From assembly GCA_963765865.1 (NCBI GenBank), contig CAVXYE010000007.1, positions 277,923 to 341,922 of the forward strand: a stretch of 64,000 bases of DNA. The letters run 5' to 3'. This document shows, piece by piece, positions 796 to 61,589 of the stretch (its first letter is position 1; every line of letters starts with the position of its first letter). Made by a program: the position numbers and the translations under genes. The stretch comes from an uncultured Actinomycetes bacterium (GTDB taxonomy: Bacteria > Actinomycetota > UBA4738 > HRBIN12). Below the pieces are notes generated by a model, which made no database searches, was not told the DNA's origin, and saw only the letters and a program-made list of their open reading frames with translations.

Positions 796-874
796 GTCGG
801 GCGGCGGCGACCACAGCCCCGGCTCCTTGACGACGACCACGTCGGGACCGATCGCGACCCCGTGCGCGAGCGCG

Positions 875-34575: not shown

Positions 34576-34709
34576 CGGAGTACGTCCGAGGATTTCGCCT
34601 CGAGCGACGGCTGGACAGGCCCGCCCTCCGGTGCAACGATTCGCGCGACGTCAGCTGGTGGGGAACGCCCGCTCGACGGGCGCCTCCACCATTCGGGAGG
34701 GGGTGCCGC

Positions 34710-36259
34710 ATGGCAAGCCGAACCGACGAACAGGCGATGATCTCGGAGAAGGTCGCGCCGGTCCTCGTGGCGAGGACGCTCGGGCCGTTCGACCTCGTCG
34801 TGATCTTCGTCGCGATCGTCCTGTTCATCAACAACGCGGCGGGGGTGCAGGCCGCGGGACCGTCGATCTTCGTCTTCTGGATCCTCGCGTTCGCGACGTT
34901 CCTGATCACCGGCGGGTTCATCACCGCGCAGCTCGGCCGGATGTTCCCCGAGGAGGGATCCCTCTACGTGTGGACCCACAAGGTCCTGGGCCCGTTCTGG
35001 GGGTTCTTCGCCGGGTTCGTCGCCTGGTGGCCCGGCCCGATCTCGCTCGTGTTCATCGGGATCCTCGTGGCCAACTTCCTCCAATCGTTCGCGTCGTTCT
35101 TCACGTGCAACGGCGCGCCGTGCGAGATCCTCACGAAGAACTGGCAACTCGGGCTCGTGGTGCTCGCCGTCCTCTGGTTCAGCGCTTCGATGTCGTACCT
35201 GAAGATGCGCGTGACGCAGAACTACGTGAACGTACAGTTCTGGGCGTACGTCTCAGTGATCTTCTTGATCGGCCTCTCCGGCGTGATCTGGCTCCTGAAG
35301 GGGAACCCGTCCTCGACCTCGTTCGCCACGGGGTGGAACCCGTTCCAGGGCGAGCACGCTCGCGCTCGGACTTCCCGCGAACCTGACGTTCTTCTCCTTC
35401 GCGATCCTCGCCCTCCTCGGGATCGAGACGCCCCTGAACATGGGGGTCGAGGTCACGGGCGGCGAGAAGGCGATCAGGACGTTCCTGTTCTGGGGCAGCA
35501 TCATCGTGATGGCCGCCTACCTCTGGGCTACCTGGGGCAACATGGTCGTGATCGAGGCCGGAGGGGCGAACGGCACGACGGGCGGCGCGGAGACCGTCGG
35601 GCTCGCGATCGGCAAGTGGGCGGGAGCGCATCGTCTCGATCGTCATGGCGTGGGTGTTCCTGACCGTGGCGGTCGTCTACAACTACTCCTTCGGCCGACT
35701 GCTGTTCGTGTCCGGGCTGGAGAAGCGCCTCCCCCACCAGTTCGGCAAGGTCAACCGGAACAAGGTACCGGCGAACGCGATCACCTTGCAGACGGCGATC
35801 TCCACGATCCTCGCGATCTTCGTGTTCTTCATCGTGGGACGCGGAGAGGCAGACCCGTATAAGGCCTTCTACGTCCTCTACGCGGGCGTGACGATCGTGT
35901 GGTGCATCTCGACCGCGTTGTTGTTCCTCGACATCTTCTTCGCGAAGCGAGCCGAGCCGGAGCGGTTCGAGCAGGAGCGCCGGATCCCCGTCGGATGGCT
36001 CTTCGTCTGCGGCGCGGTCGGGTTCGTGGTCAACGTCCTGGCGGTGATGTTCATCTTCGTTGGGTCGTGGTACCCGACGGGATTCCCGGTCCTCAAGGTG
36101 TGGAACGAGTGGATGCTCGCGTTCACGGCCGTCTCCGTGATCTCGGGGATCGCGATCTACCTGATCTCGCAGCGCACGCGTCGCGGGAAGACCGACGTGG
36201 AGCTCCTCGGCGAGGGTGCGGCGACCCAGGAGATCGCGGAGGACACGTCCATGGCGTGA
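34710..36259 (+). pseudogene. APC superfamily permease, disrupted by two +1 frameshifts (or sequencing indels) at GGG runs near 35349 and 35623
   Basis: The protein continues across three frames: ...GWNPFQG | ASTLALGLPANLTFFSFAILALLGIETP...AIGKWA | ERIVSIVMAWVFLTV... Confidence 0.7.
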
Positions 36260-36287
36260 CCCGCTTCGACGCACGGAGGGCAGTGAT

Positions 36288-36314
36288 GGGGCCCCGCCCG
36301 AAGGGCGGGGCCCC
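36288..36314. terminator. GC-rich hairpin (12-bp perfect stem, GAA loop) between convergent genes; probable bidirectional terminator without a U-tract
   Basis: GGGGCCCCGCCC-GAA-GGGCGGGGCCCC. Confidence 0.5.
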
Positions 36315-36334
36315 ATCGCATCCGGGAACGTCCC

Positions 36335-37507
36335 TCAGCCGCTCAGGCCGTGCAGGCCTCGACAGCTGTCGCCGAGGATGAGCTCTCCGAGGCGGTGGGC
36401 CTCGTCGACCGCGACGTAGTCGCGGTCGACGAGGCGCCCGAGGACCCGTTGGAGCGCGGCCCGAGCCATCAGGGCCGCGACCCAGAAGCCCTCGGGCTCG
36501 CCCGCCTCATCCGATCCGTACATGATCTTCGCGGCGGGGACGGAGCCCACGATGAGGTCGAGCGCGGGCTCGACCTGTCCCCACCCCCACGGGATGAGCT
36601 CGGAGAGCTCGAGGTAGACGTTCGGCAGGACCGAGGCGATGAACGCCCCCTCCTCGACCCAGGGGAACCCGCTGTGCACCAGCACGACCGGTTGGTGCTG
36701 GACGTCGACCAGCAACGGGAACAACCCCTTGGGCGACGCGTGCTCCAGGTCGATGTCGGGGTCCCCGCCGCCGCAGTGGAAATGGAACGCTCGGTCGTGC
36801 GCCTTGGCGACCGCGAGCGTTCGCCGGATCAGGAAGTCCCTGACCGGTTTCGCGTGCGCCCGCGTCTCGCCCCAGCCGTCGGCGCGCCAGCGCGTGAAGG
36901 CCTCCGCCGCCTCCGACGGCGAGGGATCGCCGACGTCCAGGCCGGTCCGGTACGCGACGATCGACTTGTACGCGACGCAGTTCGGGTCGGAGGCGGCCTC
37001 GGTCGCATCGGCCTCCACGCCGGCGACCAGGTCATCGAACGTCCCTTCGCGTCTCGCGAGGATCCACGGCTCCAGGCGCGCGACGCGGTGCACCGGCACG
37101 CCGATCGTCCCGGCGAACTCCGGCGCGGGGATCGGCGGCTGCGGGTAGCCCTCATCGGCGAGGACCGCCACCACACCGGCCGCATCGAGGAGGCTCTTCG
37201 TGTACGCCACGGGGTCGGCGCGCAACGCGACCTCGCGCGCGGCCGCGACCGCCTCGCGCGTGGGCTCGCACTCGAGGTGACGCGCGAGCCAACGCACGAT
37301 CGTGATCCCCATCACCGTCGAGTCCGTCAGCCGGTCCGCGGTCGGCCACAGCTCCGGATCCAGCCGCGACGACGAGGAGAACGACTCGCCGAGGAAGGTC
37401 GCTCGGGTGTCGAAGCCTTCGGACCCCTTCTCGAGCAAGTCCTCCATGCGATAGGGATGCGTATGCGCGTCGACGATCTGGAGACCCGACAGGTCGACGT
37501 CAGCCAT
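36335..37507 (-). CDS. Amidohydrolase-2 (PF04909-like) metal-dependent TIM-barrel hydrolase
   Basis: 390 aa. N-terminal IVDAHTH metal-binding motif. Confidence 0.75.
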   Translation of the reverse strand: MADVDLSGLQIVDAHTHPYRMEDLLEKGSEGFDTRATFLGESFSSSSRLDPELWPTADRLTDSTVMGITIVRWLARHLECEPTREAVAAAREVALRADPVAYTKSLLDAAGVVAVLADEGYPQPPIPAPEFAGTIGVPVHRVARLEPWILARREGTFDDLVAGVEADATEAASDPNCVAYKSIVAYRTGLDVGDPSPSEAAEAFTRWRADGWGETRAHAKPVRDFLIRRTLAVAKAHDRAFHFHCGGGDPDIDLEHASPKGLFPLLVDVQHQPVVLVHSGFPWVEEGAFIASVLPNVYLELSELIPWGWGQVEPALDLIVGSVPAAKIMYGSDEAGEPEGFWVAALMARAALQRVLGRLVDRDYVAVDEAHRLGELILGDSCRGLHGLSG

Positions 37508-37519
37508 CGAGCCCTCCGC

Positions 37520-38920
37520 TCAATACCGCCATCGATGCGCCCGAACCATGTCGGCCGGATCCATCGCAGCGAACAGGGCGTTCTCGCCGCGTCGGGTCGC
37601 GAGGAACGCGTCGAACAAGACGTCTCCCATCGCGCTTCGGATGACGGTCGATCGTTCGAGCTCGCGGATCGCGGCGCCGAGCGAGGACGGGAGCTGCCGG
37701 ATCCCCAGCGAGCGTCGTCGCGCCGCGGGGATCGCCGCCGGATCGTCGAGGATCGACTCGGGGAGCGCCAGCTCGCGTTCCACGCCGTCGATGCCGGCGG
37801 CGACGATCGCGCCGAGGGCGAGGTACGGGTTGGCCGCGGGATCCATCGACTTCAGCTCGAGGTTCGCCGCGTCCGGGCGGCTCCCGACCATCCCGGTCAC
37901 GAACCGCAGCGCGGCCTCCCGGTTCTCCCGTCCCCAGACGGCCCACGGACCGCTCCATCGGTGTGGCTGGAGCCGCTGGTAGCTCGCGACCGACGGAGCG
38001 GTGATCGCCGTGAGCGCGGGCAGCGATCCCAAGACGCCGGCCGTGAAGGCCTCGGCCTCGCGGGTCATGCCGTCCGGTCCACGGCCGCCGTTGAAGATGT
38101 TGCGACCGCGCCGGTTCCACAGGCTGAGGTGCAGGTGCGCTCCGTTGCCGACGAGCCCCGGGAACACGACCGGGGCGAACGAGGCGACGAACCCGTGGCT
38201 CCGGGCGACGGCGCGGATCGTCTGCCGCAGGACCAGGTTCGTATCGGCGACCGCGATCCCGGTGCCGTGCGGGATCGACACCTCGAGCTGTCCGGTCGAG
38301 TACTCCGGGTGGAACTGCATCACGCCCGTCCCTTGCTCCTCGAGGGCGCGGATCAACGCCGTCGCGAACGGCTCGACCTCGGCGAGGGCGATCGCGCTGT
38401 AGGCCGGCCCCGGGTGTGCGGGCTGCGGATCCTCCTGCGATCCATCCGTGGTCCGATGGCCGAGGAAGAACTCCATCTCGTAGGCGCCGCGCAGCTCGAG
38501 CCCGAAGCCCGCCAGCCGCTCGAGCATCCTCCTCGCGAACGTCCGGGTGCAGGCCGCGTACGGCTCTCCTTCTTGATCGAGCTGGTCGACCGGCGCGATC
38601 GCCCAGCCGGGGCTCGCCGCGAGCGGCGTCGTTGCCGCGGGGTCGGGCATCAGGCGCGTGTCGCCAGCCGGCCCGCCGAGGTCGGGCGACGACGTGATCG
38701 AATCATCGACGAGGAAGACGGAGAACACGGGCGACAGTCCGATCCCGAACCGGACGGCCTCCTCGAAGCGGTGCAGCGGGACGCACTTCACGAGCGTCAC
38801 CCCGGCGTTGTCGACCATCGCGAGCGCCACCATCTCGACGCCGGCGGCGGCGAGTCGCCGCGCCGCCTTCGCGGCAGCGGCGCCCGCGCCGCCACCCGCC
38901 GCTCTCGAACCGCCAGCCAT
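37520..38920 (-). CDS. Glutamine synthetase family protein (gamma-glutamyl ligase paralogue)
   Basis: ORF 37520..39943, trimmed to the ATG at 38920, 5 nt after the TAA of the upstream GS gene. Confidence 0.8.
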   Translation of the reverse strand: MAGGSRAAGGGAGAAAAKAARRLAAAGVEMVALAMVDNAGVTLVKCVPLHRFEEAVRFGIGLSPVFSVFLVDDSITSSPDLGGPAGDTRLMPDPAATTPLAASPGWAIAPVDQLDQEGEPYAACTRTFARRMLERLAGFGLELRGAYEMEFFLGHRTTDGSQEDPQPAHPGPAYSAIALAEVEPFATALIRALEEQGTGVMQFHPEYSTGQLEVSIPHGTGIAVADTNLVLRQTIRAVARSHGFVASFAPVVFPGLVGNGAHLHLSLWNRRGRNIFNGGRGPDGMTREAEAFTAGVLGSLPALTAITAPSVASYQRLQPHRWSGPWAVWGRENREAALRFVTGMVGSRPDAANLELKSMDPAANPYLALGAIVAAGIDGVERELALPESILDDPAAIPAARRRSLGIRQLPSSLGAAIRELERSTVIRSAMGDVLFDAFLATRRGENALFAAMDPADMVRAHRWRY

Positions 38921-38925
38921 CGGGC

Positions 38926-40254: not shown

Positions 40255-40321
40255 GCCGGCTCCTTCCGTCCCGCGCAACGGCTCCCGGTGTGGTGGGTAT
40301 ACCTTGACGGCCCATTGGTCC

Positions 40322-40336
40322 GCAACGGGGCGTTGC
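40322..40336. promoter_or_regulatory. Perfect inverted repeat GCAACG-GGG-CGTTGC in the divergent GS/aminotransferase promoter region
   Basis: Lies next to an 8-bp palindrome GGTATACC (40295-40302) and a TTGACG -35-like hexamer. Confidence 0.3.
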
Positions 40337-40397
40337 CCTACGCTAGGCGGAAGGCGGGACCGTGCGGGCAGGCACGGCCCGCGTGAAGGGGAGCCGG

Positions 40398-42499: not shown

Positions 42500-42509
42500 G
42501 GAGACGACG

Positions 42510-43866
42510 ATGGAGGGGGCGGTCCGGTCGGAGGACACGAAGGTGTTCCCCCGCTTCCTCGACCTGCCGTACCCGAGCATCGAACGAGGCGACGGGGTCT
42601 GGCTCACCACGACCGACGGCCGGCGCATCCTCGACGCCTGCTCCGGCGGCGCCATGGTCGCGTGTCTGGGACACGGTGTCCCCGCGGTCGTCGCGGCGGC
42701 GGCCGGACAGGCCGAGGCCATCTCGTACTTCTACAACCACCATTTCACGAACGAGCCGCAGGAGCGGCTCGCCGACCGTCTGCTGGAGATCGCGGCCCCG
42801 GAGATGGCGCGGATCCGGTTCGTCTCGGGTGGCTCCGAAGCCAACGAGACGGCGCTACAGCTCGCGCGGCTCTACCACGTGGAGCGAGGCGATGCGGACC
42901 GCTGGCGGGTGATCTCCCCCGCGCAGGCCTACCACGGTTCCACGATGGGAACGCTCGCCCTGAGCGGCCGTCGCACGCTGCAGGAGCCGTACACCCCGTA
43001 CCTCGCGCACCACCTGCACCTCGAGCCATCGACGTGGCGGTTCGACCCGACCGGCGAGGCCGCGCTGCGACGACTCGACGAACTCCTCGACGAGGCCGGG
43101 CCGGAGACGATCGCGGCGTTCTTCTGCGAGCCCGTGAGCGCAGCGGCGTTGCCCGCCTACTCGCCGCCGGAAGCGTTCTGGCGCGGGCTGGACGAGCGGC
43201 GCGCGGAGCACGGCTTCTTGATCTGCTTCGACGAAGTGGTCACCGGGATGGGACGCACCGGGACGTGGCTCGCCGCTCATCAGCTGCCGATCGAGCCCGA
43301 CATCGTGACCGTCGGCAAGGGCCTCGGGGCCGGATACGCGCCACTCGGCGGGGTGTTCTGCAGGCAGGACGTGTACGACGCGATCGATCGCGGGTCGCGC
43401 GAGTTCGACCTGGGGCATACGTGGGACGGCGCCCCGGTGTCGTCCGCCGTCGGCTTGGCGGTCCTCGATCTCCTCGTCGAACGGGCACCTGGTGGAACGG
43501 GTCCACGACCGGGGACCCCGCCTGCGCGACGAGCTCGAAGCGGCGCTCGAAGGCTCCGAGATCGTCAAAGAGGTGCGGGGGCGCGGGTTCCTGCTGGGTG
43601 TGGAGCTCGTCGACCCGCGCGACGGCGAGTCGTTCCTCCCGGTCGAGCTGGACGCGGCGTCGCTCGTGGACGACGCCGCGTTCGAACGTGAGCTCCTCGT
43701 CACGTCGACCCATCCACAGGCCGACGGCTTCGCCGGCGACCAGACGCTCCTCGCTCCCGCGTACACGAGCTCGGACCACGAGCTGGGAGCGATGGTCGAC
43801 CGTTTCGCCGCCACGATCGAGGACGTGGAGGGCGCGATCAAGGACGCCTTGACGAGGACCGCATGA
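42510..43866 (+). CDS. Class III aminotransferase paralogue with an apparent +1 frameshift at a GGG run near 43483-43485
   Basis: Frame 0 reads ...AVLDLLVER then turns to R/G/P junk. Frame +1 continues as HLVERVHDRGPRLRDELEAAL..., colinear with the paralogue at 40398. Confidence 0.7.
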
Positions 43867-45152
43867 GCGCCGGCTCGGGTGAGGAGTTCGTCCTCCTCGG
43901 GATCCCCGACGTCAACGGCTCGATCCGAGGGAAGGCGCTCCGGCCGGATGCGTTCGACTCGGCCGTCAAGCACGGAACGGTGATGACGGACCTGATCCTC
44001 GGGCTCGATCCCGTGGACACGCCCATCACCGACTACGAACGCTTCGGGATCCGGACGGGGGCAGCGGACCTGATCGTTCGCCCGGACGTCGAGACACTCC
44101 GGGATCTGGCGTGGCGGCCGGGCTGGCGTGTCTGCCTGGCCACCCCCAGCTGGCCCGACGGTTCACCGTGCGACTTCGCGACGCGCGAGGTCCTCCGGCG
44201 GGTCCTCGCCGACGCGGAAGATCTGGGGTACGAGGTGATGTCCGCGATCGAGTACGAGATCCGGATCTGGGATGCCCAGGGAAGCCCGACGTCGAGCGGT
44301 ATCAGCTACAGCCTGAACGAGATCGGAGGCTACGACCGATTCCTCGACGAGCTCGTCCGCGCCGTGGAAGGGCTCGGGATCGAGCTCTCCGCGGTCCATA
44401 CCGAGGCGGGCCCGGGCCTGTTGGAGCTCAACCTCGGCGCGCGGCGAGGGCTCGCGGCTGCCGATGACGCCGCCCTCCTGAAGTTCGGGGTCAAGCGGCT
44501 GGCCGCATCGTTGGGCTTGCGCGCCAGTTTCCTGGCGAAGACCGCACCCGGAGAGGAGGGGTCGAGCGGACACGTCCACATGTCGTGGTGGCAGGGCGGA
44601 ACCAGCGCGTTCGCATCCGGCGGCCGCGATGCTGCGATCCCCGCTGTGTTCGGGTCGGCGATCGCCGGCGTCCTGGAACACCTCCCGGCAGCCTCCCTGC
44701 TGTTGAACCCGACGATCAATTCGTACAAGCGCCTCGTTCCCGGATGGTTCGCGCCGATCAACGCGACCTGGGGCTACGACAACCGTTCGTGTGCGGTGCG
44801 CGCGATCCGCTCGGACCGACCGGAGCTCTGGCGGTTCGAGTGCCGTCGGCCCGGCGCCGACGCCAACCCCTACCTGGCGCTCGCCGCGATCGGCGCGTCG
44901 GCGGCGGACGGGATCCGCAAGGGGATCGATCCGCCGGACCCCGTCGTCGGAGACGCGTACGCCAGCGAGCTCCCCGAGCTGCCGTCCTCGCTCGAGTCGG
45001 CCCTCCGGGCCTTCGAGACCGACGACGTGTTGCGGGGGTCGCTGGGGAAGGACTTCGGCGACTACTACGCGACGTCTCGGGGATGGGAGCTCAAGGCCTG
45101 GCGCGAGACGGTCACGGACTGGGAGCGCGCGCGGTACGACCGATCCGTCTAG
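43863..45152 (+). CDS. Glutamine synthetase family protein (fourth paralogue)
   Basis: 429 aa GS catalytic domain. ATGA overlap with the aminotransferase. Confidence 0.85.
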   Translation: MSAGSGEEFVLLGIPDVNGSIRGKALRPDAFDSAVKHGTVMTDLILGLDPVDTPITDYERFGIRTGAADLIVRPDVETLRDLAWRPGWRVCLATPSWPDGSPCDFATREVLRRVLADAEDLGYEVMSAIEYEIRIWDAQGSPTSSGISYSLNEIGGYDRFLDELVRAVEGLGIELSAVHTEAGPGLLELNLGARRGLAAADDAALLKFGVKRLAASLGLRASFLAKTAPGEEGSSGHVHMSWWQGGTSAFASGGRDAAIPAVFGSAIAGVLEHLPAASLLLNPTINSYKRLVPGWFAPINATWGYDNRSCAVRAIRSDRPELWRFECRRPGADANPYLALAAIGASAADGIRKGIDPPDPVVGDAYASELPELPSSLESALRAFETDDVLRGSLGKDFGDYYATSRGWELKAWRETVTDWERARYDRSV

Positions 45153-45164
45153 CGGCCGCGCTCG

Positions 45165-47552
45165 CTACGTGAACGCGCGGATCCCGGTGAGGAGCTGGCC
45201 GATCACGAGGGTGTGGATCTCCTCGGTCCCCTCGTAGGTGAGGACGGACTCGAGGTTCGTCATGTGGCGCATGATCGGGTACTCGAGCGTGATGCCGTTC
45301 GCTCCGAGGACCCCGCGGGACATCCGCGCGATCGCGATGGCCTCACGGGTGTTGTTGAGCTTCCCGAGCGACACCTGTTCGGCGCGGAGCCGGCCCTCCT
45401 CCTTCATCCTGCCGAGCTGGTAGGCGAGGAGCGTGCCCTTCGTCAGCTCGACCGCCATGTCCGTCAGCTTCTTCTGCGTCAGCTGGAACGAGGCGATCGG
45501 CCGGTCGAACTGCACGCGCTCCTTCGCGTAGGTGAGGGCGGTCTCGAAGCACGACCGCGCCGCGCCCATCACTCCCCACACGATCCCGTACCGCGCCTCG
45601 TTGAGGCAGCTCAGCGGGCCGCGCAACCCTTCGACGCCGGGGAGGATCGCGTCCGCGGGGAGCCGCACGTCATCCATCACCAGCTCCGAGGTCACCGAGG
45701 CGCGCAGCGACATCTTCCGGTGGATGTCGGGCGCGCTGAACCCGGGCAGGTCGCACGGCACCAGGAAGCCGCGGATCCCGTCGTCGGTGTTCGCCCAGAC
45801 GACGGCCACGTCGGACACCCCGCCGTTCGTGATCCACATCTTCGTTCCGCTCACGATCCAATCGTCGCCGTCGCGGCGCGCGGTCGTTCGCATGGATCCC
45901 GGATCGCTCCCGCTGTCGGGCTCCGAGAGACCGAAGCAGCCGATCGCGTCCCCGCTCGCCATCCGCGGCAACCAGTGCGCCTTCTGCTCGTCGGAGCCGA
46001 ACGCATGGATCGCGTACATCGCCAGCGCGCTCTGCACGGAGACGAACGATCGCAGCCCGGAGTCGCCGGCCTCGAGCTCCAGCTCGACCAACCCGTAGGC
46101 GACCGCGCCGAGGTCCCCGATCCCCGGCAGCTGCATCCCGAAGAACCCGAGCTCGCCGAGCTCCTTGGCCAGCTCCCGCGCGGGGAACTCGCCGCGTTCG
46201 TACCAGTCGTCGACCTCCGGCAGGATGCGGTCGTGCACCCATTCGCGGGCGAGGTCCCGGATCTGGCGCTCCTCGTCCGAGAGCAGCGCATCCAGGTCCA
46301 GCAGATCCGACGGCTTGAGGTCGCTCATGGCTTCTCCTTGGCGTTCCCGGAGTTCTCCCCTGCCGGGTTCTCCCCTGATGGTCCCACGAGAGACGTCCTT
46401 CTCGCGCGCCCGGCCGAGGACCTCGCCGGTGTGCTCGCCCAGGGACGGCGGCGGCAGGTCGTAGCGGATCGGCGTCAACGACATGCGGAGCGGGTTGGCC
46501 ACCGTGTCGACCTCGATCCCGTCGCGACGCTGAAGCGTCGCGACGGGATCGAGGCCGACCGTCCGGGCGTAGGCGAAGGCCTCGGCCACATCGTGGACGA
46601 CGCCGCACGGGATCCCGTCCCGCCGCAAGAGGTCGACCCAGGAGGCCGCGGACGCGGATCGCAGGCGCGCCTCCAACGCGCCGACGAGCGCGTCCCGGTT
46701 CGTCACCCGATCGCCGTTGGTCGCGAAGCTCGGGTCGTCGGCGAGCGACTCGACGCCCAACGACCGGCAGAGCGTCCGGAACTGCCCGTCGTTGCCCACC
46801 GCGATCACGATGGGCCCGTCGGACGTGGCGAACGTCTCGTAGGGGGCGATGCTCGGGTGCCGATTCCCCATCCGATGGGGGACGACGCCCGCCGTCAGGT
46901 ACCCGCTCGCCTGGTTGACGAGCGAGAACAACGTGGTCGACAGCAGATCGACCTCGACGAGCTGACCCTCGCCGGTCCGTTCACGGTGGCGGAGCGCTGC
47001 CACGATCCCGATCGCCGCGTGCAGACCCGCCATCACGTCCACGAGCGCCACGCCGACCTTCCGAGGCTCGCCCTCGGGATCACCCGTGACGCTCATCAGG
47101 CCGCCGACCGCCTGCGCCAGGAAGTCGTAGCCGGCGACGTCCCCGCGACCGATCCCCAGGATGCTGCAGTACACGACGGCTGGGTTCGAAGCCCGGACCG
47201 CCGGCTCGTCCAGACCGAGGCGGTGCATCACGCCGGGTCGGAAGTTCTCGATCACGACGTCGGCCCGCCGGGCGAGATCCTTGGCGGCGTCCAGGTCCGT
47301 CGGGTCCTTGAGATCGAGGGTCACGCTCCGCTTGTTCCGGTTCAGCCCCAGGTAGTAGCTGGCATCGCCCTCCGGGGACCACGGCGGGCCCCACGCGCGC
47401 GTGTCGTCGCCGCCGTCCGGGTGCTCCACCTTGACGACCTCGGCCCCGAGGTCACCGAGGATCATCGTCGCGAGCGGTCCGGCCAGGACGCGGGAGAAGT
47501 CGGCGACGAGGACGCCGTCGAGAGCGCTCGGTGGTCGAACCTCGTCAGGCAC
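45165..47552 (-). CDS. Single 795-aa reading frame: family III CoA-transferase (CaiB/BaiF, N-terminal ~395 aa) fused in frame to acyl-CoA dehydrogenase (glutaryl-CoA-DH-like, C-terminal 387 aa from the ATG at 46328)
   Basis: No stop in any minus-strand frame between 46329 and 46440. The junction carries a tandem repeat GTTCTCCCCTG x2 and a perfect internal RBS (AAGGAGaagccATG) in front of the ACAD domain. Confidence 0.7.
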   Translation of the reverse strand: MPDEVRPPSALDGVLVADFSRVLAGPLATMILGDLGAEVVKVEHPDGGDDTRAWGPPWSPEGDASYYLGLNRNKRSVTLDLKDPTDLDAAKDLARRADVVIENFRPGVMHRLGLDEPAVRASNPAVVYCSILGIGRGDVAGYDFLAQAVGGLMSVTGDPEGEPRKVGVALVDVMAGLHAAIGIVAALRHRERTGEGQLVEVDLLSTTLFSLVNQASGYLTAGVVPHRMGNRHPSIAPYETFATSDGPIVIAVGNDGQFRTLCRSLGVESLADDPSFATNGDRVTNRDALVGALEARLRSASAASWVDLLRRDGIPCGVVHDVAEAFAYARTVGLDPVATLQRRDGIEVDTVANPLRMSLTPIRYDLPPPSLGEHTGEVLGRAREKDVSRGTIRGEPGRGELRERQGEAMSDLKPSDLLDLDALLSDEERQIRDLAREWVHDRILPEVDDWYERGEFPARELAKELGELGFFGMQLPGIGDLGAVAYGLVELELEAGDSGLRSFVSVQSALAMYAIHAFGSDEQKAHWLPRMASGDAIGCFGLSEPDSGSDPGSMRTTARRDGDDWIVSGTKMWITNGGVSDVAVVWANTDDGIRGFLVPCDLPGFSAPDIHRKMSLRASVTSELVMDDVRLPADAILPGVEGLRGPLSCLNEARYGIVWGVMGAARSCFETALTYAKERVQFDRPIASFQLTQKKLTDMAVELTKGTLLAYQLGRMKEEGRLRAEQVSLGKLNNTREAIAIARMSRGVLGANGITLEYPIMRHMTNLESVLTYEGTEEIHTLVIGQLLTGIRAFT

Positions 47553-47607
47553 GGGTCAGACTGTATCCGTGCGCCCCTCGATGGGGCGTGCCCGGTAGGC
47601 TGCGACG

Positions 47608-48360: not shown

Positions 48361-48363
48361 ACC

Positions 48364-49326
48364 GTGGCCCGGGCCTGGGTGTACGCGGAGGTCACGCCGG
48401 ATGGCCCGCACCCGGCCGCGCTCGAGCTGCTGACCCACGCCCGGTCGTTCGACGAAGAGCCGGCGGCGATCGCGCTGGGTCCCGGCGCGACCGAGGCGGC
48501 AGCCGAGCTCGGGGCGCACGGCGCCGCCACCGTGTACGCCTCCGACGATCCGGTCTTCACCGAGCATCCCGGGCGGCCGGCCGCCCACGTGCTGGCGGGC
48601 CTGATCGAGGCCGAGACTCCCGACGTCGTCCTGTTCGCGCAGACGTACGACTCGCGTGACGTCGCCGGCCGGCTCCAGGGGAGGATCGGATCGTCCCTCA
48701 TGGGCAACGCCACGAGCATCGCGGATCCGCGACACGCGCGCGCGGAGATCTTCGGCGGCACGAAGATCGTCGACGTCGAGCTCGCCGGGCCGGCGCCGAC
48801 GCTCATCCTCCTGCGGCCGAAGAGCATCGCCGCCGAACCGACGGGTGGCACGGCACGGGTCCTGCCGGTCGACGCCGAGGTGCCCGAGGACGTCCGGGGC
48901 GCGCGGGTCGTGGAGCGCCACGAAGAGACGGCGAGCGGGCCCCGGCTCGAGGACGCGAAGGTGGTCCTGGCCGGGGGGCGCGGATTGGGTGGGCCCGACG
49001 CGTTCGCGATGCTCGACGAGCTGGCGAGCGCGATCGGCGGCGCGGCCGTCGGTGCCTCTCGCGCCGCCGTCGACGCCGGGTGGGTGCCGTACAGCTACCA
49101 GATCGGGCAGACGGGCAAGACCGTCAAGCCCGAGGTCTATCTCGCCGCCGGGATCAGCGGCGCCTTGCAGCACATCGTGGGGATGAAGGGCGCGAAGCGG
49201 ATCGTCGCGATCAACAAGGACGCGGACGCTCCGCTCCTCGCGATGGCCGACCTCGGCGTGGTCGGCGACCTGTTCCAGGTGCTCCCCGCCCTCACGGAGG
49301 AGATCCGCCGACGCAAAGGCTCCTGA
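48364..49326 (+). CDS. etfA: Electron transfer flavoprotein alpha subunit
   Basis: 320 aa. FAD-binding C-terminal domain (AAGISGALQHIVGMKGAKRIVAINKD). Confidence 0.9.
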   Translation: MARAWVYAEVTPDGPHPAALELLTHARSFDEEPAAIALGPGATEAAAELGAHGAATVYASDDPVFTEHPGRPAAHVLAGLIEAETPDVVLFAQTYDSRDVAGRLQGRIGSSLMGNATSIADPRHARAEIFGGTKIVDVELAGPAPTLILLRPKSIAAEPTGGTARVLPVDAEVPEDVRGARVVERHEETASGPRLEDAKVVLAGGRGLGGPDAFAMLDELASAIGGAAVGASRAAVDAGWVPYSYQIGQTGKTVKPEVYLAAGISGALQHIVGMKGAKRIVAINKDADAPLLAMADLGVVGDLFQVLPALTEEIRRRKGS

Positions 49327-49355
49327 GCGCCCTCGCCCTCGCGGCCGTCCTGACC

Positions 49356-51308: not shown

Positions 51309-51328
51309 GCGGCATTACACTCGCCGGG

Positions 51329-52047
51329 ATGAAGCCGATCCTGCTCGTTCGTTGCGACGCGTTCGAGACCTACGGCGTCGCCCCCTCCGCCCTCGGAGCG
51401 GCGGGAGCGACGACGCGGATCTGGGACGCCACGGACCCCGCCGAGGAACGACCGAACCTCGGAGACGTGTCCGGCGTCGTGCTGTTCGGCAGCACCTCGA
51501 ACGTCGAACAGGCGGACGAGCGACCGTTCATCAAAGAGGTCGCCGATCTGACGCACGAGGCCGTCGAACGCGGCGTGCCGTTCCTCGGCCTGTGCTTCGG
51601 GGCGCAGGTGCTGGCGTGGGCGCTCGGCGCGGACGTGATCAAGGCGCCGGTCCGCGAGCTCGGCTTCGAGCCGATCCGAACGCTCGCTGCGGCGGCCGAT
51701 GACCCGGTGCTCAGCCACTACGCGGACGGCGACCCGGTGTTCCACTGGCACGAGGACACGTTCGAGCTCCCCCGGACGCGACGCTCCTGGCCACCGGTGA
51801 GGCGGTCCCGAATCAGGCCTACCGGGTCGGCGAGACGGCGTGGGCGACCCAGTTCCACGCAGAGGTCGACGCCGTGGAAGCCGAGATGTGGGTCACCGAA
51901 GCGAGCGCCCAGCAGGATCTGGAGGAGGCGTGGGGCAAGTCCCCCGCGCGGGTGCGTGAAGAGATCCGGCTCCACATGGCCGGTCACGAGCGCCGCGGCC
52001 GCGAGACGTTCCGGCGGTTCGTCGAGGTCGCGCGGGAGCGGTCATGA
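51329..52047 (+). CDS. Class I glutamine amidotransferase-like paralogue with an apparent -1 frameshift in a C5 run (51769-51773)
   Basis: Frame 1 reads MKPILLVRCD...HWHEDTFELP. The continuation ...DATLLATGEAVPNQAYRVGETAWATQFHAEVD... is in the -1 frame, colinear with the paralogue at 41771. Confidence 0.6.
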
Positions 52048-53346
52048 CCTACCGCCCGCTCGTCGCGGTCGTCGCGTACCACCTCGGGGACGATCGTGTC
52101 GCCCGCTGGCCCCACGGCGGATACGGCGTCCCCGGCCCGTACATCGAGTGCCTGCGCCGCGCCGGAGCCAGGACGGCGATCGTCTCCCCCGGCGAGGACG
52201 GCGCCCCCGAGGAGCTCCTCGAACCCTTCGATGGGCTCCTCCTCGTGGGCGGCGGCGACATCGATCCGGCCCGATACGGGGGCGATCCCCGCGACGGCCA
52301 CCTGTACGGGGTCGAGCCCGATCGCGATGAGCTGGAGATCCAGCTGCTCCAGGCGGCGGACCGTTTGCGCGTGCCGACGCTCTGCATCTGTCGCGGGATG
52401 CAGGTCATGAACGTGGCGTTCGGGGGCACGTTGCATCCCCACCTGCCCGACCTGCCCGGGATGGTCCAGCACGGCGTCCCGGTCCTCGACACGCAGACCC
52501 TCCACGACATCGGGGTCGAGCACGCGAGCCGGCTGTTCGCGACCACGAAGGTTTCCACGCTGGCGGCGTCCTCGCACCACCATCAGGGGGTCGACCGTGT
52601 CGGGGGCGGACTGCTCGTGTCCGGTCGGACGTCCGACGGCCTCGTGGAGGCGATCGAACGCGACCACGACCTGGACGCCGACTGGGAGCGGTGGATGGTC
52701 GGGGTGCAGTGGCACCCCGAGGACACGGCCAACGACGACCCCGCCCAACAGGCACTCTTCGACGGTCTCGCGCTCCTCGCGAGGGTGCGCGGCTCGAAGG
52801 CCGAGCATCACGGCGTCGGCCGGACGCGCGCGTATTCGATCGTGCAGCCGGACCCGGCCTGGCCGGAGCGTTTCGAGCAGGAAGCCGCTCGCGTCCGGGT
52901 CGCCCTCGGAGCTCAGGTCGTCCGGATCGAGCACATCGGCTCGACCTCGGTCCGGGGGCTTCCGGCCAAGCCCATCATCGACATCTCCGTCGGGCTCGCC
53001 TCGATGGAGCCCCGAGGTGCGTACGTGCCGGCGTTGCGACGGTCTGGGGTACCGAACGGTCTTGGATCCCTGCGACCCCGACCACGAGTTCGCCAGCCTC
53101 GATCTGGACGGCGAGCGGCGCTTCCACGTGCATCTCTGCCTGGCCGGGAGCCGGTTCGAACGCAGGCACCTCGCCTTCCGGGACTGGCTCCGAACGCATC
53201 CGGAGGACGCCGCCGCCTACGGGGAGCTCAAGCGAGAGCTCGCGGCAACGCATCCGAACGACGTCCATACCTACACCGAGGCGAAGACCGGGTTCATCCG
53301 ATCGATCGAAGCGCAGGCGCTCGCCGCCGCCTCCGGAGCGGTCTGA
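52044..53346 (+). CDS. PuuD-like gamma-glutamyl hydrolase (peptidase C26 / class I GATase) fused in frame to a GrpB-family domain; +1 frameshift at a GGGG run (53046-53049) inside the GrpB part
   Basis: The PuuD part (CICRGMQVMN, HHHQGVDRVGGG, WHPE) ends near residue 250. The GrpB N-terminus (YSIVQPDPAWPERF...IEHIGSTSVRGLPAKPIIDI) follows with no start codon of its own. The GrpB C-terminus (LGYRTVLDP...HVHL...) is in the +1 frame (ORF 52597..53346). Confidence 0.55.
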
Positions 53347-53601
53347 GCGGTCGGAGAGAGGACTAGTCAGTTCGGCCCGATACCTGGATAATCCCCGCCA
53401 TCGCACGGGGCGGTGGTCCGGACGGATCACGGCTCCTCGGCACGGGAGGGCACGTATCCACGGTCGAGCGCGCTCGTTGGCGGATGATCTCCGGCGTAGA
53501 CCGGGTCACCAGTCGTGGCACCGATGCGCGGCCGACACCGAACCGATGACCGGGCCGAAGGATAGGCTCACCCTCGGCGTGCGCGACGAGGCTCGGGAAC
53601 G

Positions 53602-54705
53602 GTGAGCGAGATCCGGGTCGTCCACGCCCGCGGAGACGGTTTCTCCCGCGGGATGCAGGTGGGCGCGGAGCTCCAGGACCTGATCCAGGACTCGATCTCC
53701 TTCTACCACCGGTACCTCGACCGACGTGGCGTGTCGTCGGAGCAGCTCCAGGACCTCCTCACGCCCTACCTGCTGGCGGCGGAAACCGCCTACCCGGACA
53801 TGATGAACGTCCTCAAAGGGATGTCGGTCGCGGCGCTCGTTCCCGTCCTCGAGCTGTTCGCGATCAACGCCTTCGAAGAGCTCGAGCCCCTCCTGGAGTC
53901 TCCGGAAGGCGAGCTCCTCTTCCTCCAGAAGAAGGAGGGGTACACCCAGCGTCCCGCGGCTCCCGATCGATGCTCGAGCATCTCGGTCCGGACGCCGGAC
54001 GGGGGAACCCTGCTGGCGCACAACGAGCACTGGCTCGCCGGCGATGCCGGAAACGTCGCCGTGGTCGTGGACCACCCCGCAGACGGACGTGTCTCGGTCG
54101 CGAGCCCCACGGTCGTCTGCTGCCTGCCGGCGGTCGGCGTCAACGGGCACGGGGCCGCGCAGGGGATCGGCTCCCTCACCGCCTCCGACGACGGGGTCGG
54201 CGTGCCTCGGGTCCTGGTCTCGCGGAGCTCCCTCGAGGCGAGGGACCGTCGGGACGCGGTGGCTCGCGGCGCGATGCCCGGGCGGGCCGGCGGCTACGGT
54301 CATGTCTTCGCGTTCGCGGACGGCGACTGCTTCACCCTCGAGACCTCCGGGCGCGAGCACCGGCTGGTCGATGGAGCCGCGCCGCACACGAACCACTACC
54401 GGAGCGACCTGGCCGAGTTGGCCCCCGAGCCGTCGGAGGGCTCGGTCGCACGGTTGCGGCGGCTCCTGGAGCTCGTTGAGGAGGAAGCGCCGACCTCCGC
54501 CGAGGACCTGATGACGATCATGCGCGACCACAGCTCGGCGCCGCAGTCGATCTGCCTGCATCCGGACCCGAACGAGGGCGACGAGGCCTCGGCGGTCATG
54601 TTCTCGATGGTGGCCGACCTGGGAGCGAGACGGATGTGGGTCGCCCTGGGAAACCCCTGCGAGCACGAGTACGAGAGCATCGACATCGCGGAGCTGTCGG
54701 CGTGA
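53602..54705 (+). CDS. Peptidase C45 family (acyl-CoA:6-APA acyltransferase-like, autoproteolytic Ntn) protein
   Basis: 367 aa. Candidate processing site DRCSSISV. GTG start. Confidence 0.7.
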   Translation: MSEIRVVHARGDGFSRGMQVGAELQDLIQDSISFYHRYLDRRGVSSEQLQDLLTPYLLAAETAYPDMMNVLKGMSVAALVPVLELFAINAFEELEPLLESPEGELLFLQKKEGYTQRPAAPDRCSSISVRTPDGGTLLAHNEHWLAGDAGNVAVVVDHPADGRVSVASPTVVCCLPAVGVNGHGAAQGIGSLTASDDGVGVPRVLVSRSSLEARDRRDAVARGAMPGRAGGYGHVFAFADGDCFTLETSGREHRLVDGAAPHTNHYRSDLAELAPEPSEGSVARLRRLLELVEEEAPTSAEDLMTIMRDHSSAPQSICLHPDPNEGDEASAVMFSMVADLGARRMWVALGNPCEHEYESIDIAELSA

Positions 54706-54767
54706 GGGCGCCGGTCGGGTGCCGTGCTGTCGACAGGTCGACCGGCGATAGCTCAGCCGGATGTCTG

Positions 54768-54777
54768 CGTTGCAACG
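54768..54777. promoter_or_regulatory. Perfect 10-bp palindrome CGTTGCAACG upstream of the peptide ABC operon
   Basis: Lies 53 nt upstream of the ATG at 54830. A second imperfect repeat GTCGACAGGTCGAC sits at 54730-54743. Confidence 0.3.
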
Positions 54778-54829
54778 TAAGAACCGTAGAAGCCATGATC
54801 CAGGAGCCCGGGGAGAGAGAGGAGTCGGC

Positions 54830-56746
54830 ATGTTGGACCGCAAGAGGGCAGTGAGAACGCCGCGTCTCGGTTCGACCATCGTGGCCACGTGCATCGTGAT
54901 GGCCACCTTGGTGGGACCCGCGTTCGCACAGTCCACGACACCCTCGGGCAGCGCGACGTCCTCCAGCGGCGCACCGGTCACCTTCACCTTCGCCGACACG
55001 AGCACACCGGACTCACTCAATCCCCTCGTCGGTTACCTGGGGACCGACTACACCCTGTGGGCCATCAACTACGACCTCCCGATCAACTGGAGTACCCAGG
55101 ACTTCAGCCCGGACTTCGACCACTCGTTGGTGACGAGCGTGGACGCGAGCCCCGACGGCCTGACCTCCACGTATCACCTCCGTCCGGGAGTGCTCTGGTC
55201 CGACGGCCAGCCATTCTCCTCAGAGGATGTCGCGTGGACGCTCAACTACTACCTCGATAACAACGTTCCCAACTACTCGTCGGACCTTGCCCTGGTCGAC
55301 AAGGTGACGGCGACCGACCCGAACACGTTCGTCATCACCTCCACCCAGCCGACATCCTTCTATTCCGGCGCGTCGGTCTTCCTGTACGAGTACATCCTCC
55401 CGAAGCACATCTGGAGCAAGTACCAGAACGACTACAACGGTGCTCGTCACGTCACCGATATGGAGACGCTGGGCGTCGGTACGGGCCCGTTCAACTTCAC
55501 GAAGTACGTGAAGGGCCAGTACGTCGAGCTTGACCGCAACCCGAACTATTGGGGCAACGCCGTTGGGCTCACGCCTCAGGTGGACAGGATCATCTACCGC
55601 ATCTACAACAACGAAGACGCCGAAGCCGCGGGGCTGACCAACGGTGAGATCGACTTCGGCTACTTCGACTCGGCGAACATCCTGAACACCCTCAAGACGA
55701 AGCCGGGGATCTCCGCTCGAGGCGCCGTCATCCCGAGCTTCGACGAGATCGGATTCAACACGGGCTCGGCGTATCAGACGGACAAGACGGGCGGGTTCAG
55801 CCCACACGGGGATGGAGCACTCGCGCTGACCGACTACCGCGTGCGGGAAGCGATGCGGATGGCGATCGATAGCCAAACCCTCGTGGACAAGGTGCTTCTC
55901 GGATACGGTTCACCCGGGATATCGCCGGTCCAACCCACCGCAACGACCGGTAACTGGCAACCCGGTCCGAACGACCCGGATCTTTCGTTCAGCATCGCCA
56001 ACGCCAACGCTCTCTTGGATCAGGCCGGGTACACGATGGGGCCGGACAACGTCCGGATCGACCCGAAGTCCGGCAAGCCGCTCGAGTTCCGCTACTACAC
56101 ACGCGAGTCGGACGAGACGACGATCAAGACGGCACCGTACGTCAAGGACTGGCTGTCGCAGATCGGCATCAAGGTCGACGTGCAGACCATCACGAGCGAC
56201 AAGCTGTCGACCTACCAGGTGGCCGGGACCTACGACCTCTACGACTGGGGTTGGTATCCGAACCCCGACCCGAACTACATCCTCGGCATCTTCACCTGTG
56301 CCGAGCGTCCGCCGGATGCCGACACCTACCGGAACAGCGACAGCTACTACTGCAACCCCGCGTACGACAAGCTGTACAAGCAGCAACAGACCGAGATCGA
56401 CCCCGCGAAGCGCGCTGACATCGTTCATCAGATGCAAGCGATCCTCTGGAAGGATTCGCCGTACGTGGTCAAGTGGAACGGCGCGCTGCTGGAGGCGTAC
56501 CGCAGCGACCGGTGGACCGGGTTCCAGCCGCAGCCGACAGGAGATACCGGCGATCTGCTCGCCACGTATGGGCCGCTGTCCTTCGTCAGCGTCCGTCCGA
56601 TCGCAGGAGCCGAAACCGCGGGGAGCTCGGGTTCGAAAGGTCTCTCTGCCGCGGTGTGGATCGGGATCGGGGTCGTGATCGTGCTCATCGTGGGCGCGTT
56701 CGTCGTGGGGCGGCGACGCGGCGTCAGCGACGAGGATCAAGCGTAG
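54830..56746 (+). CDS. ABC transporter substrate-binding protein, family 5 (Opp/Dpp/Nik-type), with N-terminal signal peptide and an unusual C-terminal TM anchor
   Basis: ORF 54761..56746, trimmed to the ATG at 54830 (SD GAGAGGAG). Signal peptide ends at AFAQ. C-terminal ...SSGSKGLSAAVWIGIGVVIVLIVGAFVVGRRRGVSDEDQA. Confidence 0.8.
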   Translation: MLDRKRAVRTPRLGSTIVATCIVMATLVGPAFAQSTTPSGSATSSSGAPVTFTFADTSTPDSLNPLVGYLGTDYTLWAINYDLPINWSTQDFSPDFDHSLVTSVDASPDGLTSTYHLRPGVLWSDGQPFSSEDVAWTLNYYLDNNVPNYSSDLALVDKVTATDPNTFVITSTQPTSFYSGASVFLYEYILPKHIWSKYQNDYNGARHVTDMETLGVGTGPFNFTKYVKGQYVELDRNPNYWGNAVGLTPQVDRIIYRIYNNEDAEAAGLTNGEIDFGYFDSANILNTLKTKPGISARGAVIPSFDEIGFNTGSAYQTDKTGGFSPHGDGALALTDYRVREAMRMAIDSQTLVDKVLLGYGSPGISPVQPTATTGNWQPGPNDPDLSFSIANANALLDQAGYTMGPDNVRIDPKSGKPLEFRYYTRESDETTIKTAPYVKDWLSQIGIKVDVQTITSDKLSTYQVAGTYDLYDWGWYPNPDPNYILGIFTCAERPPDADTYRNSDSYYCNPAYDKLYKQQQTEIDPAKRADIVHQMQAILWKDSPYVVKWNGALLEAYRSDRWTGFQPQPTGDTGDLLATYGPLSFVSVRPIAGAETAGSSGSKGLSAAVWIGIGVVIVLIVGAFVVGRRRGVSDEDQA

Positions 56747-56780
56747 GACTGGACGTCACGAGAAGGCGGGGCAGGCGAGG

Positions 56781-57750
56781 GTGAGCACGCGGAGGTACCT
56801 CTTCTCCAAGATCGCGCAAGCGTTCCTCACCCTCGCCTTCGTCCTGGCGTTCAACTTCTTCCTCTTCCGCGGGCTCGGCGATCCCGTGTCGTTGCTGCTC
56901 CACGGACACGCATCGCTCACCCCGAGCGCGATCGCAGACCTCAAGCAGCAGCTCGGGCTGGACCTTCCCCTCCCGCAACAGTTCCTCCACTACATCAACG
57001 AGACCCTCCACGGGAACCTCGGGTACGCCTACGACGGCACCCCGGTCTCGACCGTCATCGCGTCGAAGGCATGGCCGACGCTGCTGCTCATCGGCCTCTC
57101 GACGATCGCATCGATCGTGATCGGCATCTGGGTCGGGATCAAGCAGGGATGGAAGCGCGGCACCGGGTTCGATCAAAGCATGCTCGGGGTCACGCTGGTC
57201 CTCTACTCGATGCCCGAGTTCTGGTTCGGGCTGCTGATGATCATGCTCTTCGCGGTGACGTTCCAGATCTTCCCCACGGGGGGGATGACGACGCCCGGCG
57301 CCGACTACACGGGCGCTGAAGCACGTCGCCGATGTCATGAATCACATGGCCCTGCCCTTCTTCGTGTTGACGGTTGCGTATCTCGCCGAATACTCCATCA
57401 TCATGCGTTCCTCATTGCTGGAGACGCTCGGGGAGGACTTCATCACGACGGCTCGCTCCAAAGGCATGATGGAGAAGCGGGTCCTCTACCGGCACGCGGT
57501 GCCGAACGCGCTGCTGCCGACGATGACCGTCACGATCCTCTCGCTGGGATTCGTGATCTCGGGGGCGATCACGATCGAGATCATCTTCAGCTGGCCGGGT
57601 CTCGGCCTCGAGACGTACAACGCGATCCTGAACAAGGACTACTCGATGCTCCAGGGGCTGTTCCTGCTGTTCAGTGCCGCCGTGATCTTCGCGAACCTCG
57701 TCGCCGACCTCCTCTACTCGTACCTCGATCCACGAGTGAGAGCGGCGTGA
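56781..57750 (+). CDS. ABC transporter permease (DppB/OppB-like) with an apparent frameshift near 57312-57318
   Basis: Frame 1 reads ...FPTGGMTTPGADYTG. The continuation ALKHVADVMNHMALPFFVLTV...EAA motif region is in ORF 57337..57750. Confidence 0.7.
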
Positions 57751-57751
57751 C

Positions 57752-61531: not shown

Positions 61532-61589
61532 AGGCGCCAATCATCCACGATTGGACAGCCCAAATACCAGTTGTGCGGCGACGAACCGG

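What the first reader, a model, noticed from the sequence alone, without database searches (positions are those of the whole stretch)
35349..57318. Six apparent frameshifts confined to 35-58 kb (five at short G or C homopolymers), versus none in the first 30 kb
Each site interrupts a gene whose protein continues colinearly in another frame. The sites are: 35349 and 35623 (APC permease); 43483-43485 (class III aminotransferase); 51769-51773 (C5 run, GATase); 53046-53049 (GGGG run, GrpB domain); and 57312-57318 (GC dinucleotide, DppB-like permease). Four are +1 G insertions at G-runs, one is a -1 C deletion at a C-run, and one is a GC-repeat slip. The local clustering suggests either a lower-coverage or lower-quality stretch of a draft or metagenome assembly, or a genuinely decaying accessory island (possibly horizontally acquired).
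Basis: seen in the sequence. Interest (0 to 1): 0.55.

Follow-up and report, generated by a model that had tools for sequence, protein, structure and literature searches.

The report
Assembly indel errors, not decaying genes

Summary
All six reported frame breaks exist. In each, the protein continues colinearly in another frame. Comparison with 98-99% identical DNA of the same species from other assemblies changes the details.

- There are nine single-base lesions, not six: +G 885, +G 34543, +G 35358, +G 35628, +C/G 43482, +G 46352, -C 51768, +G/A 53038 and +G 57315.
- One lesion (885) lies in the first 30 kb.
- Only one lesion (C6 to C5 at 51768) is a classic homopolymer error.
- Eight of the nine are seen only in the window. 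The C5 state at 51768 is shared with one other long-read contig.
- Undoing one base at each lesion restores proteins of exactly the relatives' length (347, 515, 440, 379+387, 239, 433 and 322 aa), with no gaps. Identity is 98-99.6% where it was measured against the closest conspecific contig.
- Two conspecific short-read contigs that cover five of the sites are intact there.
- Nearly every conspecific long-read contig (named in the style of the Flye assembler) carries its own different set of 1-bp indels, which break other genes.

This is the pattern of unpolished Nanopore-type consensus error. It does not fit pseudogenisation, a decaying island or programmed frameshifting. The clustering (8 of 9 within 22.8 kb) is modest (post hoc P about 0.01-0.02). 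Its cause, probably a local coverage dip, cannot be tested without reads.

The parts
885..885 (.). Extra G, inside a minus-strand gene. It brings in a stop at 875-877 and splits a 1224-aa MFS-type protein.
   Evidence: L180 lacks this G; the window's 623-aa product sits in a 90% cluster whose other listed members are mostly 1056-1224 aa (JGI/NCBI); with the G removed, window 1-2746 (-) is a 915-codon open fragment, 905/915 identical to L180 and without gaps.
34543..34543 (.). Extra G near the 3' end of the acetamidase/formamidase gene (33531 onward). The stop at 34573-34575 falls out of frame, so the ORF runs on into the permease.
   Evidence: short-read contig L098 and long-read L082 lack the base. 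Removing it gives a 347-aa product ending RGSEPAPSS*, the same length as in L098.
35358..35358 (.). Extra G (CAC[G]CTC) in the APC permease gene (34710-36259).
   Evidence: absent from L081, L082 and short-read L098; the repaired 515-aa protein aligns without gaps to 515-aa homologues (94% identity).
35628..35628 (.). Extra G (GC[G]CAT) in the APC permease gene.
   Evidence: absent from L098, L081 and L082; the invariant W-A-G-A motif is read correctly up to the extra base.
43482..43482 (.). Extra C or G (GAA[C]GGG) in the class III aminotransferase gene (42543-43866).
   Evidence: absent from L081, L082, L087, L088, L089 and L090; the repaired protein is 440 aa, 433/440 identical to L087, with 0 gaps.
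46352..46352 (.). Extra G on the + strand, 7 codons before the stop of the minus-strand CoA-transferase III gene. It fuses that gene with the acyl-CoA dehydrogenase gene (start 46328) into ORF 45165-47552.
   Evidence: the relatives have separate genes of 379 aa and 387 aa that overlap by 4 nt, and all four lack the G; removing it restores the C-terminus GNAKEKP*. CoA_transf_3 and the Acyl-CoA_dh domains lie in one window ORF.
51769..51773 (.). A C5 run where L087, L088, L089 and short-read L179 have C6. This one-base deletion breaks the GATase gene (51329-52047).
   Evidence: L090 (long-read) also has C5, and its GATase is also broken; the repaired protein is 239 aa, 238/239 identical to L087.
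53038..53038 (.). Extra G or A in the GrpB part of the natural Peptidase_C26-GrpB fusion gene (52044-53346).
   Evidence: absent from L087-L090 and short-read L179, all of which keep GGGG; the repaired protein is 433 aa, 431/433 identical; the 433-aa fusion is called intact in L087, L088 and L089; it is also called intact in L179.
57315..57315 (.). Extra G (GGC[G]CTG) in the DppB-like permease gene (56781-57750).
   Evidence: absent from L087-L090 and L178; the repaired protein is 322 aa, 320/322 identical.

Best explanation
The frame breaks are consensus errors of a long-read metagenome assembly that was never polished with short reads. The assembly is most likely Nanopore-only, made with Flye and one round of Medaka. 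Nine single bases are wrong in the window: eight spurious insertions and one lost C in a C6 run. The organism's genes are intact. Eight of the errors fall within 34.5-57.3 kb, probably because read depth or consensus quality dipped there. Shown: the errors are private to the assembly, and the genes are intact once one base is undone. Inferred: the sequencing platform and the reason for the clustering.
For: 1. Source and relatives. Exact window proteins are on record on one 402,615-bp contig (NCBI+ENA). Conspecific contigs with Flye-style names ('contig_N', 24 kb to 1.5 Mb) from sister ENA analyses ERZ250394xx-ERZ250395xx are 98-99% identical.

2. Multiple alignments. Eight of the nine window lesions are absent from every conspecific compared at that site. 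The ninth (C5) is shared only with long-read L090. Nearly every long-read relative has its own private 1-bp indels (0-11 private insertions plus up to 5 private deletions per ~21-kb alignment; L093 has none), mostly insertions. They break different genes, such as aldehyde dehydrogenase, a methyltransferase, glutamine-synthetase-like genes, ETF-alpha, the Fe-S oxidoreductase, the SBP and the amidohydrolase (gene tables).

3. Short-read contigs of the same species.
- L098 (JGI) lacks the window's extra bases at 34543, 35358 and 35628, and has one open frame across the permease.
- L179 (SPAdes) has C6 and lacks the extra base at 53038, with intact genes of 239 aa and 433 aa.
- Eight further short-read contigs (25.7 kb aligned) show no coding indel against the window.

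4. Undoing one base per lesion gives proteins of exactly the relatives' length with zero gaps and no other defect: 433/440, 238/239, 431/433 and 320/322 identical, 515 aa without gaps, 347 aa and 905/915.

5. Genus-level relatives from the Microflora Danica long-read MAG set (L001, L009) are riddled with frame switches. That catalogue is Nanopore-only, assembled with Flye '-meta' and polished with one round of Medaka (PMC12313526). Nanopore bins below about 40-fold coverage need short-read polishing, and residual indels fragment gene calls (PMC9262707).
Against: - No reads, depths or quality values are available, so the error status of each base is inferred from comparison and not observed.
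- The source contig itself could not be fetched. Its platform is inferred from the naming and the company it keeps.
- Most of the window's errors are non-homopolymer insertions, whereas the best-known Nanopore error is homopolymer length.
- At least six of the eight insertions are unambiguously G on the + strand, and none is unambiguously C. This bias is unexplained.
- A few indels recur at the same site in two independent assemblies (51768, 48611, 54488, 55429). These could be systematic error or real polymorphism.
- The clustering is only modestly significant, and its cause is untested.
Confidence: 0.9

Rival explanations
1. The lesions are genuine, very recent pseudogenisation in this strain. 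On this view a catabolic and transport region (34.5-57.3 kb) is being lost under relaxed selection.
For: The lesions are really in the deposited sequence, and eight of the nine cluster in one functional neighbourhood. Two parts of the region (34-36 kb and 54-57 kb) are more divergent between strains.
Against: - None of the eight window-only lesions is shared even with the closest relative, which is 99.1-99.2% identical.
- Each broken gene has a single-base lesion (two in the APC permease gene) and is otherwise 98-99.6% identical to intact orthologues, with no stop codons and no further decay.
- Nearly every other long-read assembly of the species shows the same kind and density of lesion in other genes, while the short-read assemblies show none. 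Taken as biology, that would mean hundreds to thousands of broken genes per genome.
- One more lesion lies far away at 885.
Confidence: 0.06
2. The sites are programmed frameshifts or transcriptional slippage sites, or phase-variable homopolymer switches, so full-length proteins are made or switched on and off on purpose.
For: One site is a C5/C6 run whose length differs between assemblies.
Against: - Conspecifics encode all these proteins in a single frame, so the shift is not conserved.
- Eight of the nine sites have no slippery run or repeat.
- A C6 tract is short for phase variation.
- No shared motif was seen when the flanks were inspected by eye.
Confidence: 0.02
3. The contig is a chimeric or strain-mixed consensus. 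On this view 34.5-57.3 kb was built from a different, rarer strain or from a collapsed mix of strains, and that produced the local indels.
For: The errors are patchy in the window and in its relatives. Strain-variable segments exist at 34-36 kb and 54-57 kb.
Against: Substitution distance from the window to its nearest relative (L081/L087, one contig) is the same, about 5 per kb, on both sides of 34 kb and across 37-53 kb. There is therefore no sign of a switch of backbone strain. This is a variant of the artefact explanation and not a true rival.
Confidence: 0.25

Closest known systems
Residual indel errors in Nanopore-only (Flye + Medaka) metagenome-assembled genomes, which cause frameshifts and fragmented gene calls (PMC9262707; pipeline of PMC12313526)
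   Same: The lesions are single-base indels and nearly all are private to one assembly. They split or fuse otherwise intact genes. They are absent from short-read assemblies of the same species. Their density varies along and between contigs. The closest relatives come from such a catalogue.
   Different: The textbook error is a miscounted homopolymer. Here eight of nine are insertions, mostly outside runs and mostly G on one strand. The platform of the source contig is inferred and not documented here.
Bacterial pseudogenes formed by frameshift (genome decay)
   Same: Reading frames are interrupted by 1-bp indels, and several lie close together.
   Different: There are no shared lesions, no nonsense mutations, no accumulation of substitutions and no loss of synteny. 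The same phenomenon appears at other positions in nearly every long-read assembly of the species, but not in the short-read ones.
Programmed ribosomal frameshifting (for example prfB or dnaX) and contingency-locus phase variation
   Same: A protein continues in another frame. One site is a short C run.
   Different: The shift is not conserved, there is no slippery heptamer or long tract, and relatives encode the proteins in one frame.

Membership tests
Long-read assembly consensus indel error | The indel is private to one assembly and absent from near-identical genomes of the same species. | tested here: met
   Eight of nine lesions are absent from all conspecific contigs compared at that site. 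Seven were checked against three or more contigs. The lesion at 885 was checked against one contig and a protein cluster. The ninth (C5) is shared only with long-read L090.
Long-read assembly consensus indel error | Reverting a single base restores a full-length protein that aligns without gaps and has no other defect. | tested here: met
   Lengths are 515, 440, 379, 239, 433, 322 and 347 aa, plus a 915-aa fragment, all with 0 gaps.
Long-read assembly consensus indel error | Independent short-read assemblies of the same species lack the indels. | tested here: met
   L098 covers 34543, 35358 and 35628. L179 covers 51768 and 53038. The sites at 885, 43482, 46352 and 57315 were checked only against long-read contigs or protein clusters.
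Long-read assembly consensus indel error | Other assemblies made the same way show comparable private indels elsewhere. | tested here: met
   One search gives private indel counts per contig. Searches show different genes fragmented in each contig. One search shows that L001 and L009 are full of frame switches.
Long-read assembly consensus indel error | Reads or quality values show low depth or poor support at the sites, and polishing removes the indels. | not testable with these tools
   No reads or depths are available, and the source contig could not be retrieved.
Genuine pseudogenes / decaying island | Lesions are shared by descent with close relatives, or several independent lesions and excess substitutions occur per gene. 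| tested here: not met
   No lesion is shared with the 99% identical relative. The broken genes are 98-99.6% identical to intact orthologues, with no stops.
Genuine pseudogenes / decaying island | The region is compositionally or syntenically distinct (acquired island). | tested here: not met
   G+C is about 0.70 and GC3 is 0.84-0.93, as in the rest of the window. The gene order is the same in all conspecific contigs.
Programmed frameshift / phase variation | A conserved frame break with a slippery motif or a long simple repeat at the site. | tested here: not met
   Relatives are in frame. Eight of nine sites have no run. The only run is C5/C6.

The most novel reading that the evidence does not exclude
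A minority of the indels are real. The candidates are the length-variable C5/C6 run in the GATase gene (C5 in the window and in L090) and the insertions that recur at identical positions in two independent assemblies (48611 in L088+L089; 54488 and 55429 in L089+L090). These could be genuine frameshift alleles segregating in this soil actinobacterial population. Alternatively they could mark a sequence- or modification-dependent systematic basecalling error that could be catalogued and corrected.
Probability: 0.05. Interest if true: 0.3.

Novelty: not a real feature. Interest (0 to 1): 0.08.

Why it matters
The value is mainly quality control. About 15% of the genes in this window, and roughly a third of those in 34.5-57.3 kb, would be wrongly annotated as split, truncated or fused. 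One example is the false 795-aa CoA-transferase/acyl-CoA dehydrogenase 'fusion'. Another is an acetamidase ORF that runs into the permease. Anyone using this MAG for pseudogene counts, domain-fusion discovery or pathway completeness would be misled. The finding reveals no new biology.

Tried and rejected
- A composition and frame screen alone reproduced the six sites but missed three lesions where a stop or an in-frame neighbour follows at once. Only comparison with relatives found those.
- The look-up of encoding contigs with two window proteins (43863-45149 and 57752-58714) returned nothing, so the source contig and its sample name were not recovered.
- The genome-contig scan gave only genus-level relatives (at most 82% aa identity). 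These helped with synteny and with seeing frame-shifted MFD MAGs, but not with base-level truth.
- I first tried inserting a G after 34506 to repair the acetamidase. That failed. The parsimonious repair is removal of G 34543.
- I looked by eye for a common motif around the insertions in all assemblies and saw none.
- I considered a strain switch in the backbone as the cause of the clustering. Substitution density does not support it.
- I considered a single long read spanning the 23-kb cluster. I dropped the idea because the read N50 in the likely source project is about 6 kb.
- The in-frame stop at 22368-22370 and the frame change at about 30.3 kb were checked and are normal gene boundaries.
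Full report
**Observation**

The window is about 70% G+C, so long spurious ORFs are common. I trained a codon-usage model on 15 long, high-GC3 ORFs and ran a six-frame Viterbi segmentation. Exactly six places appear where the coding signal leaves a frame 213-561 nt before that frame's stop and resumes at once in another frame on the same strand.

Pfam matches to the fragments are colinear:
- AA_permease_2: 2-188 | (90 aa with no match) | 274-424 of 427.
- Aminotran_3: 12-307 | 311-402 of 403.
- GrpB: 3-66 | 69-158 of 159.
- BPD_transp_1: 2-50 | 47-183 of 184.

So the frame breaks are real features of the sequence.

**Finding the same species elsewhere**

Exact look-ups show that the window's proteins are on record on one 402,615-bp contig (NCBI+ENA). 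They sit in 90% clusters with dozens to hundreds of members from soil metagenomes. The source contig itself could not be fetched.

Look-ups of shared exact proteins returned conspecific DNA:
- Long contigs with Flye-style names from ENA analyses ERZ25039464, -532, -560, -561, -567, -575, -578, -579 and -583. These are L081/L087/L178, L082, L088-L090, L092-L094 and L180, at 98.1-99.2% identity.
- Short-read contigs: L083-L086, L091, L095-L097 and L179.
- One more short-read contig from the metagenome scan: L098, a JGI contig 97.3% identical over window 29.5-38.5 kb.

Together these cover the whole window.

**What the alignments show**

Multiple alignments place the causal bases as follows:
- +G 35358 (CAC[G]CTC).
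- +G 35628 (GC[G]CAT).
- +C or +G 43482.
- Loss of one C from a C6 run at 51768.
- +G or +A 53038. This is 8 nt upstream of the GGGG run, which all relatives also have.
- +G 57315 (GGC[G]CTG).

Three further frame-disrupting indels had been missed:
- +G 34543 puts the acetamidase stop out of frame, so its ORF runs into the permease. The repaired product is 347 aa, as in L098.
- +G 46352 lies 7 codons before the CoA-transferase stop. It fuses that gene with the acyl-CoA dehydrogenase into the 795-aa ORF 45165-47552. The relatives have genes of 379 aa and 387 aa that overlap by 4 nt.
- +G 885 cuts to 623 aa a protein whose listed cluster members are mostly 1056-1224 aa. The repaired 915-aa fragment is 905/915 identical to L180 and has no gaps.

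Between 3.2 kb and 34.4 kb the window has no private indel.

The Peptidase_C26-GrpB fusion (433 aa) is natural. The in-frame stop at 22368 and the frame change near 30.3 kb are ordinary gene boundaries.

**Artefact or biology**

Four observations point the same way.

1. Eight of the nine lesions are absent from every conspecific compared at that site, including the contig that is 99.1-99.2% identical. The ninth (C5) is shared only with long-read L090.
2. Undoing one base per lesion gives products of exactly the relatives' length with zero gaps and no further defect. The aminotransferase is 433/440 identical, the GATase 238/239, C26-GrpB 431/433 and DppB 320/322. The APC permease is 515 aa and aligns without gaps to 515-aa homologues.
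3. Short-read contigs are intact at the sites they cover. L098 covers 34543, 35358 and 35628. L179 covers 51768 and 53038. Eight other short-read contigs (25.7 kb aligned) differ from the window by a single intergenic G4/G5 run and by no coding indel.
4. Nearly every long-read conspecific contig has its own private 1-bp indels: 0-11 private insertions plus up to 5 private deletions per ~21-kb alignment. L093 has none. Insertions dominate. They break genes that are intact in the window, such as aldehyde dehydrogenase, a methyltransferase, glutamine-synthetase-like genes, ETF-alpha, the Fe-S oxidoreductase, the SBP and the amidohydrolase.

Read as biology, this would mean hundreds to thousands of broken core genes per genome in long-read assemblies and none in short-read assemblies of the same species. 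Read as consensus error, it is what one expects.

The nearest genus-level genomes (L001, L009) are Microflora Danica long-read MAGs whose genes switch frame every few hundred bases. That catalogue was built from Nanopore reads only, with Flye '-meta -nano-hq' and one round of Medaka (PMC12313526). The same group showed that Nanopore bins below about 40-fold coverage need short-read polishing, and that residual indels fragment gene calls (PMC9262707). That the window comes from this or a similar pipeline is my inference from the contig naming and accession ranges. It is not shown directly.

**The island idea**

G+C and GC3 of 35-58 kb match the rest of the window. Gene order is identical in all conspecific contigs. 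Substitution distance to the nearest relative is about 5 per kb on both sides of 34 kb, with strain-variable peaks only at 34-36 kb and 54-57 kb. Nothing suggests an acquired or decaying island, and nothing suggests a switch of backbone strain.

**Clustering**

With nine lesions, eight lie within 22.8 kb. Simulation gives P = 0.022 for that and P = 0.010 for the 33.7-kb lesion-free stretch. Both tests are post hoc. Relatives are equally patchy. L092 has three indels within 1.5 kb and none in the next 18.7 kb of the alignment. L094 has three within 3.2-8 kb, none for about 16 kb, and then four within 0.7 kb. A local dip in depth or consensus quality is the likely cause, but it cannot be tested without reads.

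**Unexplained details**

- Eight of the nine errors are insertions.
- At least six are unambiguously G on the + strand and none is unambiguously C. Three have the form C[G]C.
- Only one is a classic homopolymer miscount.
- A few indels recur at identical positions in two independent assemblies.

These details may reflect context-dependent basecalling or polishing error. They leave a small chance that a few indels are real alleles.

**Verdict**

This is an ordinary assembly-quality issue of no biological novelty.

Noticed in passing
window 48611, 54488, 55429, 51768, 5444, 5883 (in L088/L089, L089/L090, window/L090, L092/L093): Identical 1-bp indels recur at the same position in two independent long-read assemblies from different samples. 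For example, +G at 48611 splits ETF-alpha in both L088 and L089. These could be systematic context-dependent errors or real shared alleles.
   Followed up: partly
window 885, 34543, 35358, 35628, 46352, 57315 (also 43482, 53038): At least six of the window's eight spurious insertions are unambiguously G on the + strand and none is unambiguously C. Three have the form C[G]C. The other assemblies show no such bias. If G and C were equally likely, the two-sided P would be about 0.03.
   Followed up: partly
window 34000-37000 and 54000-58000: Substitution density against conspecifics rises from about 5 per kb to 13-64 per kb over the acetamidase 3' end and APC permease, and over the SBP and DppB genes. 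These are also the lowest-G+C parts of the window (0.64-0.67). The acetamidase C-terminal tail differs between strains through several compensating indels.
   Followed up: partly
window 30413-54705: The gene content looks like a gamma-glutamylation-type amine/polyamine catabolic cluster. It holds an ethanolamine permease, four glutamine-synthetase-like genes, an acetamidase, an APC permease, an Amidohydro_2 gene, two class III aminotransferases, two GATase/PuuD-like genes and a CoA-transferase III. It also holds an acyl-CoA dehydrogenase, ETF alpha and beta, a CCG-domain Fe-S oxidoreductase and a C45 peptidase. The functional reading rests on my own knowledge of Puu- and GlnA-like pathways and was not tested.
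   Followed up: no
window 52044-53346: A natural 433-aa fusion of a Peptidase_C26 (PuuD-like) domain with a GrpB domain. Gene callers report it intact in L087, L088 and L089 (long-read) and in the short-read contig L179.
   Followed up: partly
window 1-2746 (-): An MFS transporter with an N-terminal extension of about 800 aa that matches no Pfam family. The full protein is 1224 aa in relatives.
   Followed up: no
window 60899-60905; 34604-34605; 32088: Other length differences. There is a 7-nt GGCCTCT segment that the window has and L178 lacks, inside ORF 60791-61540, which is intact in the window. There is a window-private GC dinucleotide in the acetamidase-permease spacer. There is also an intergenic G4 (window) versus G5 (two short-read contigs) run.
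   Followed up: no
L001 (CAVTEH010000003.1) against window 32-61 kb: The genus-level relative keeps the synteny of window 47.6-60.7 kb. It lacks the 33.5-45 kb block at this place and has the acyl-CoA dehydrogenase/ETF block inverted. In several other relatives, an acyl-CoA dehydrogenase paralogue sits next to homologues of window 10-24 kb.
   Followed up: no
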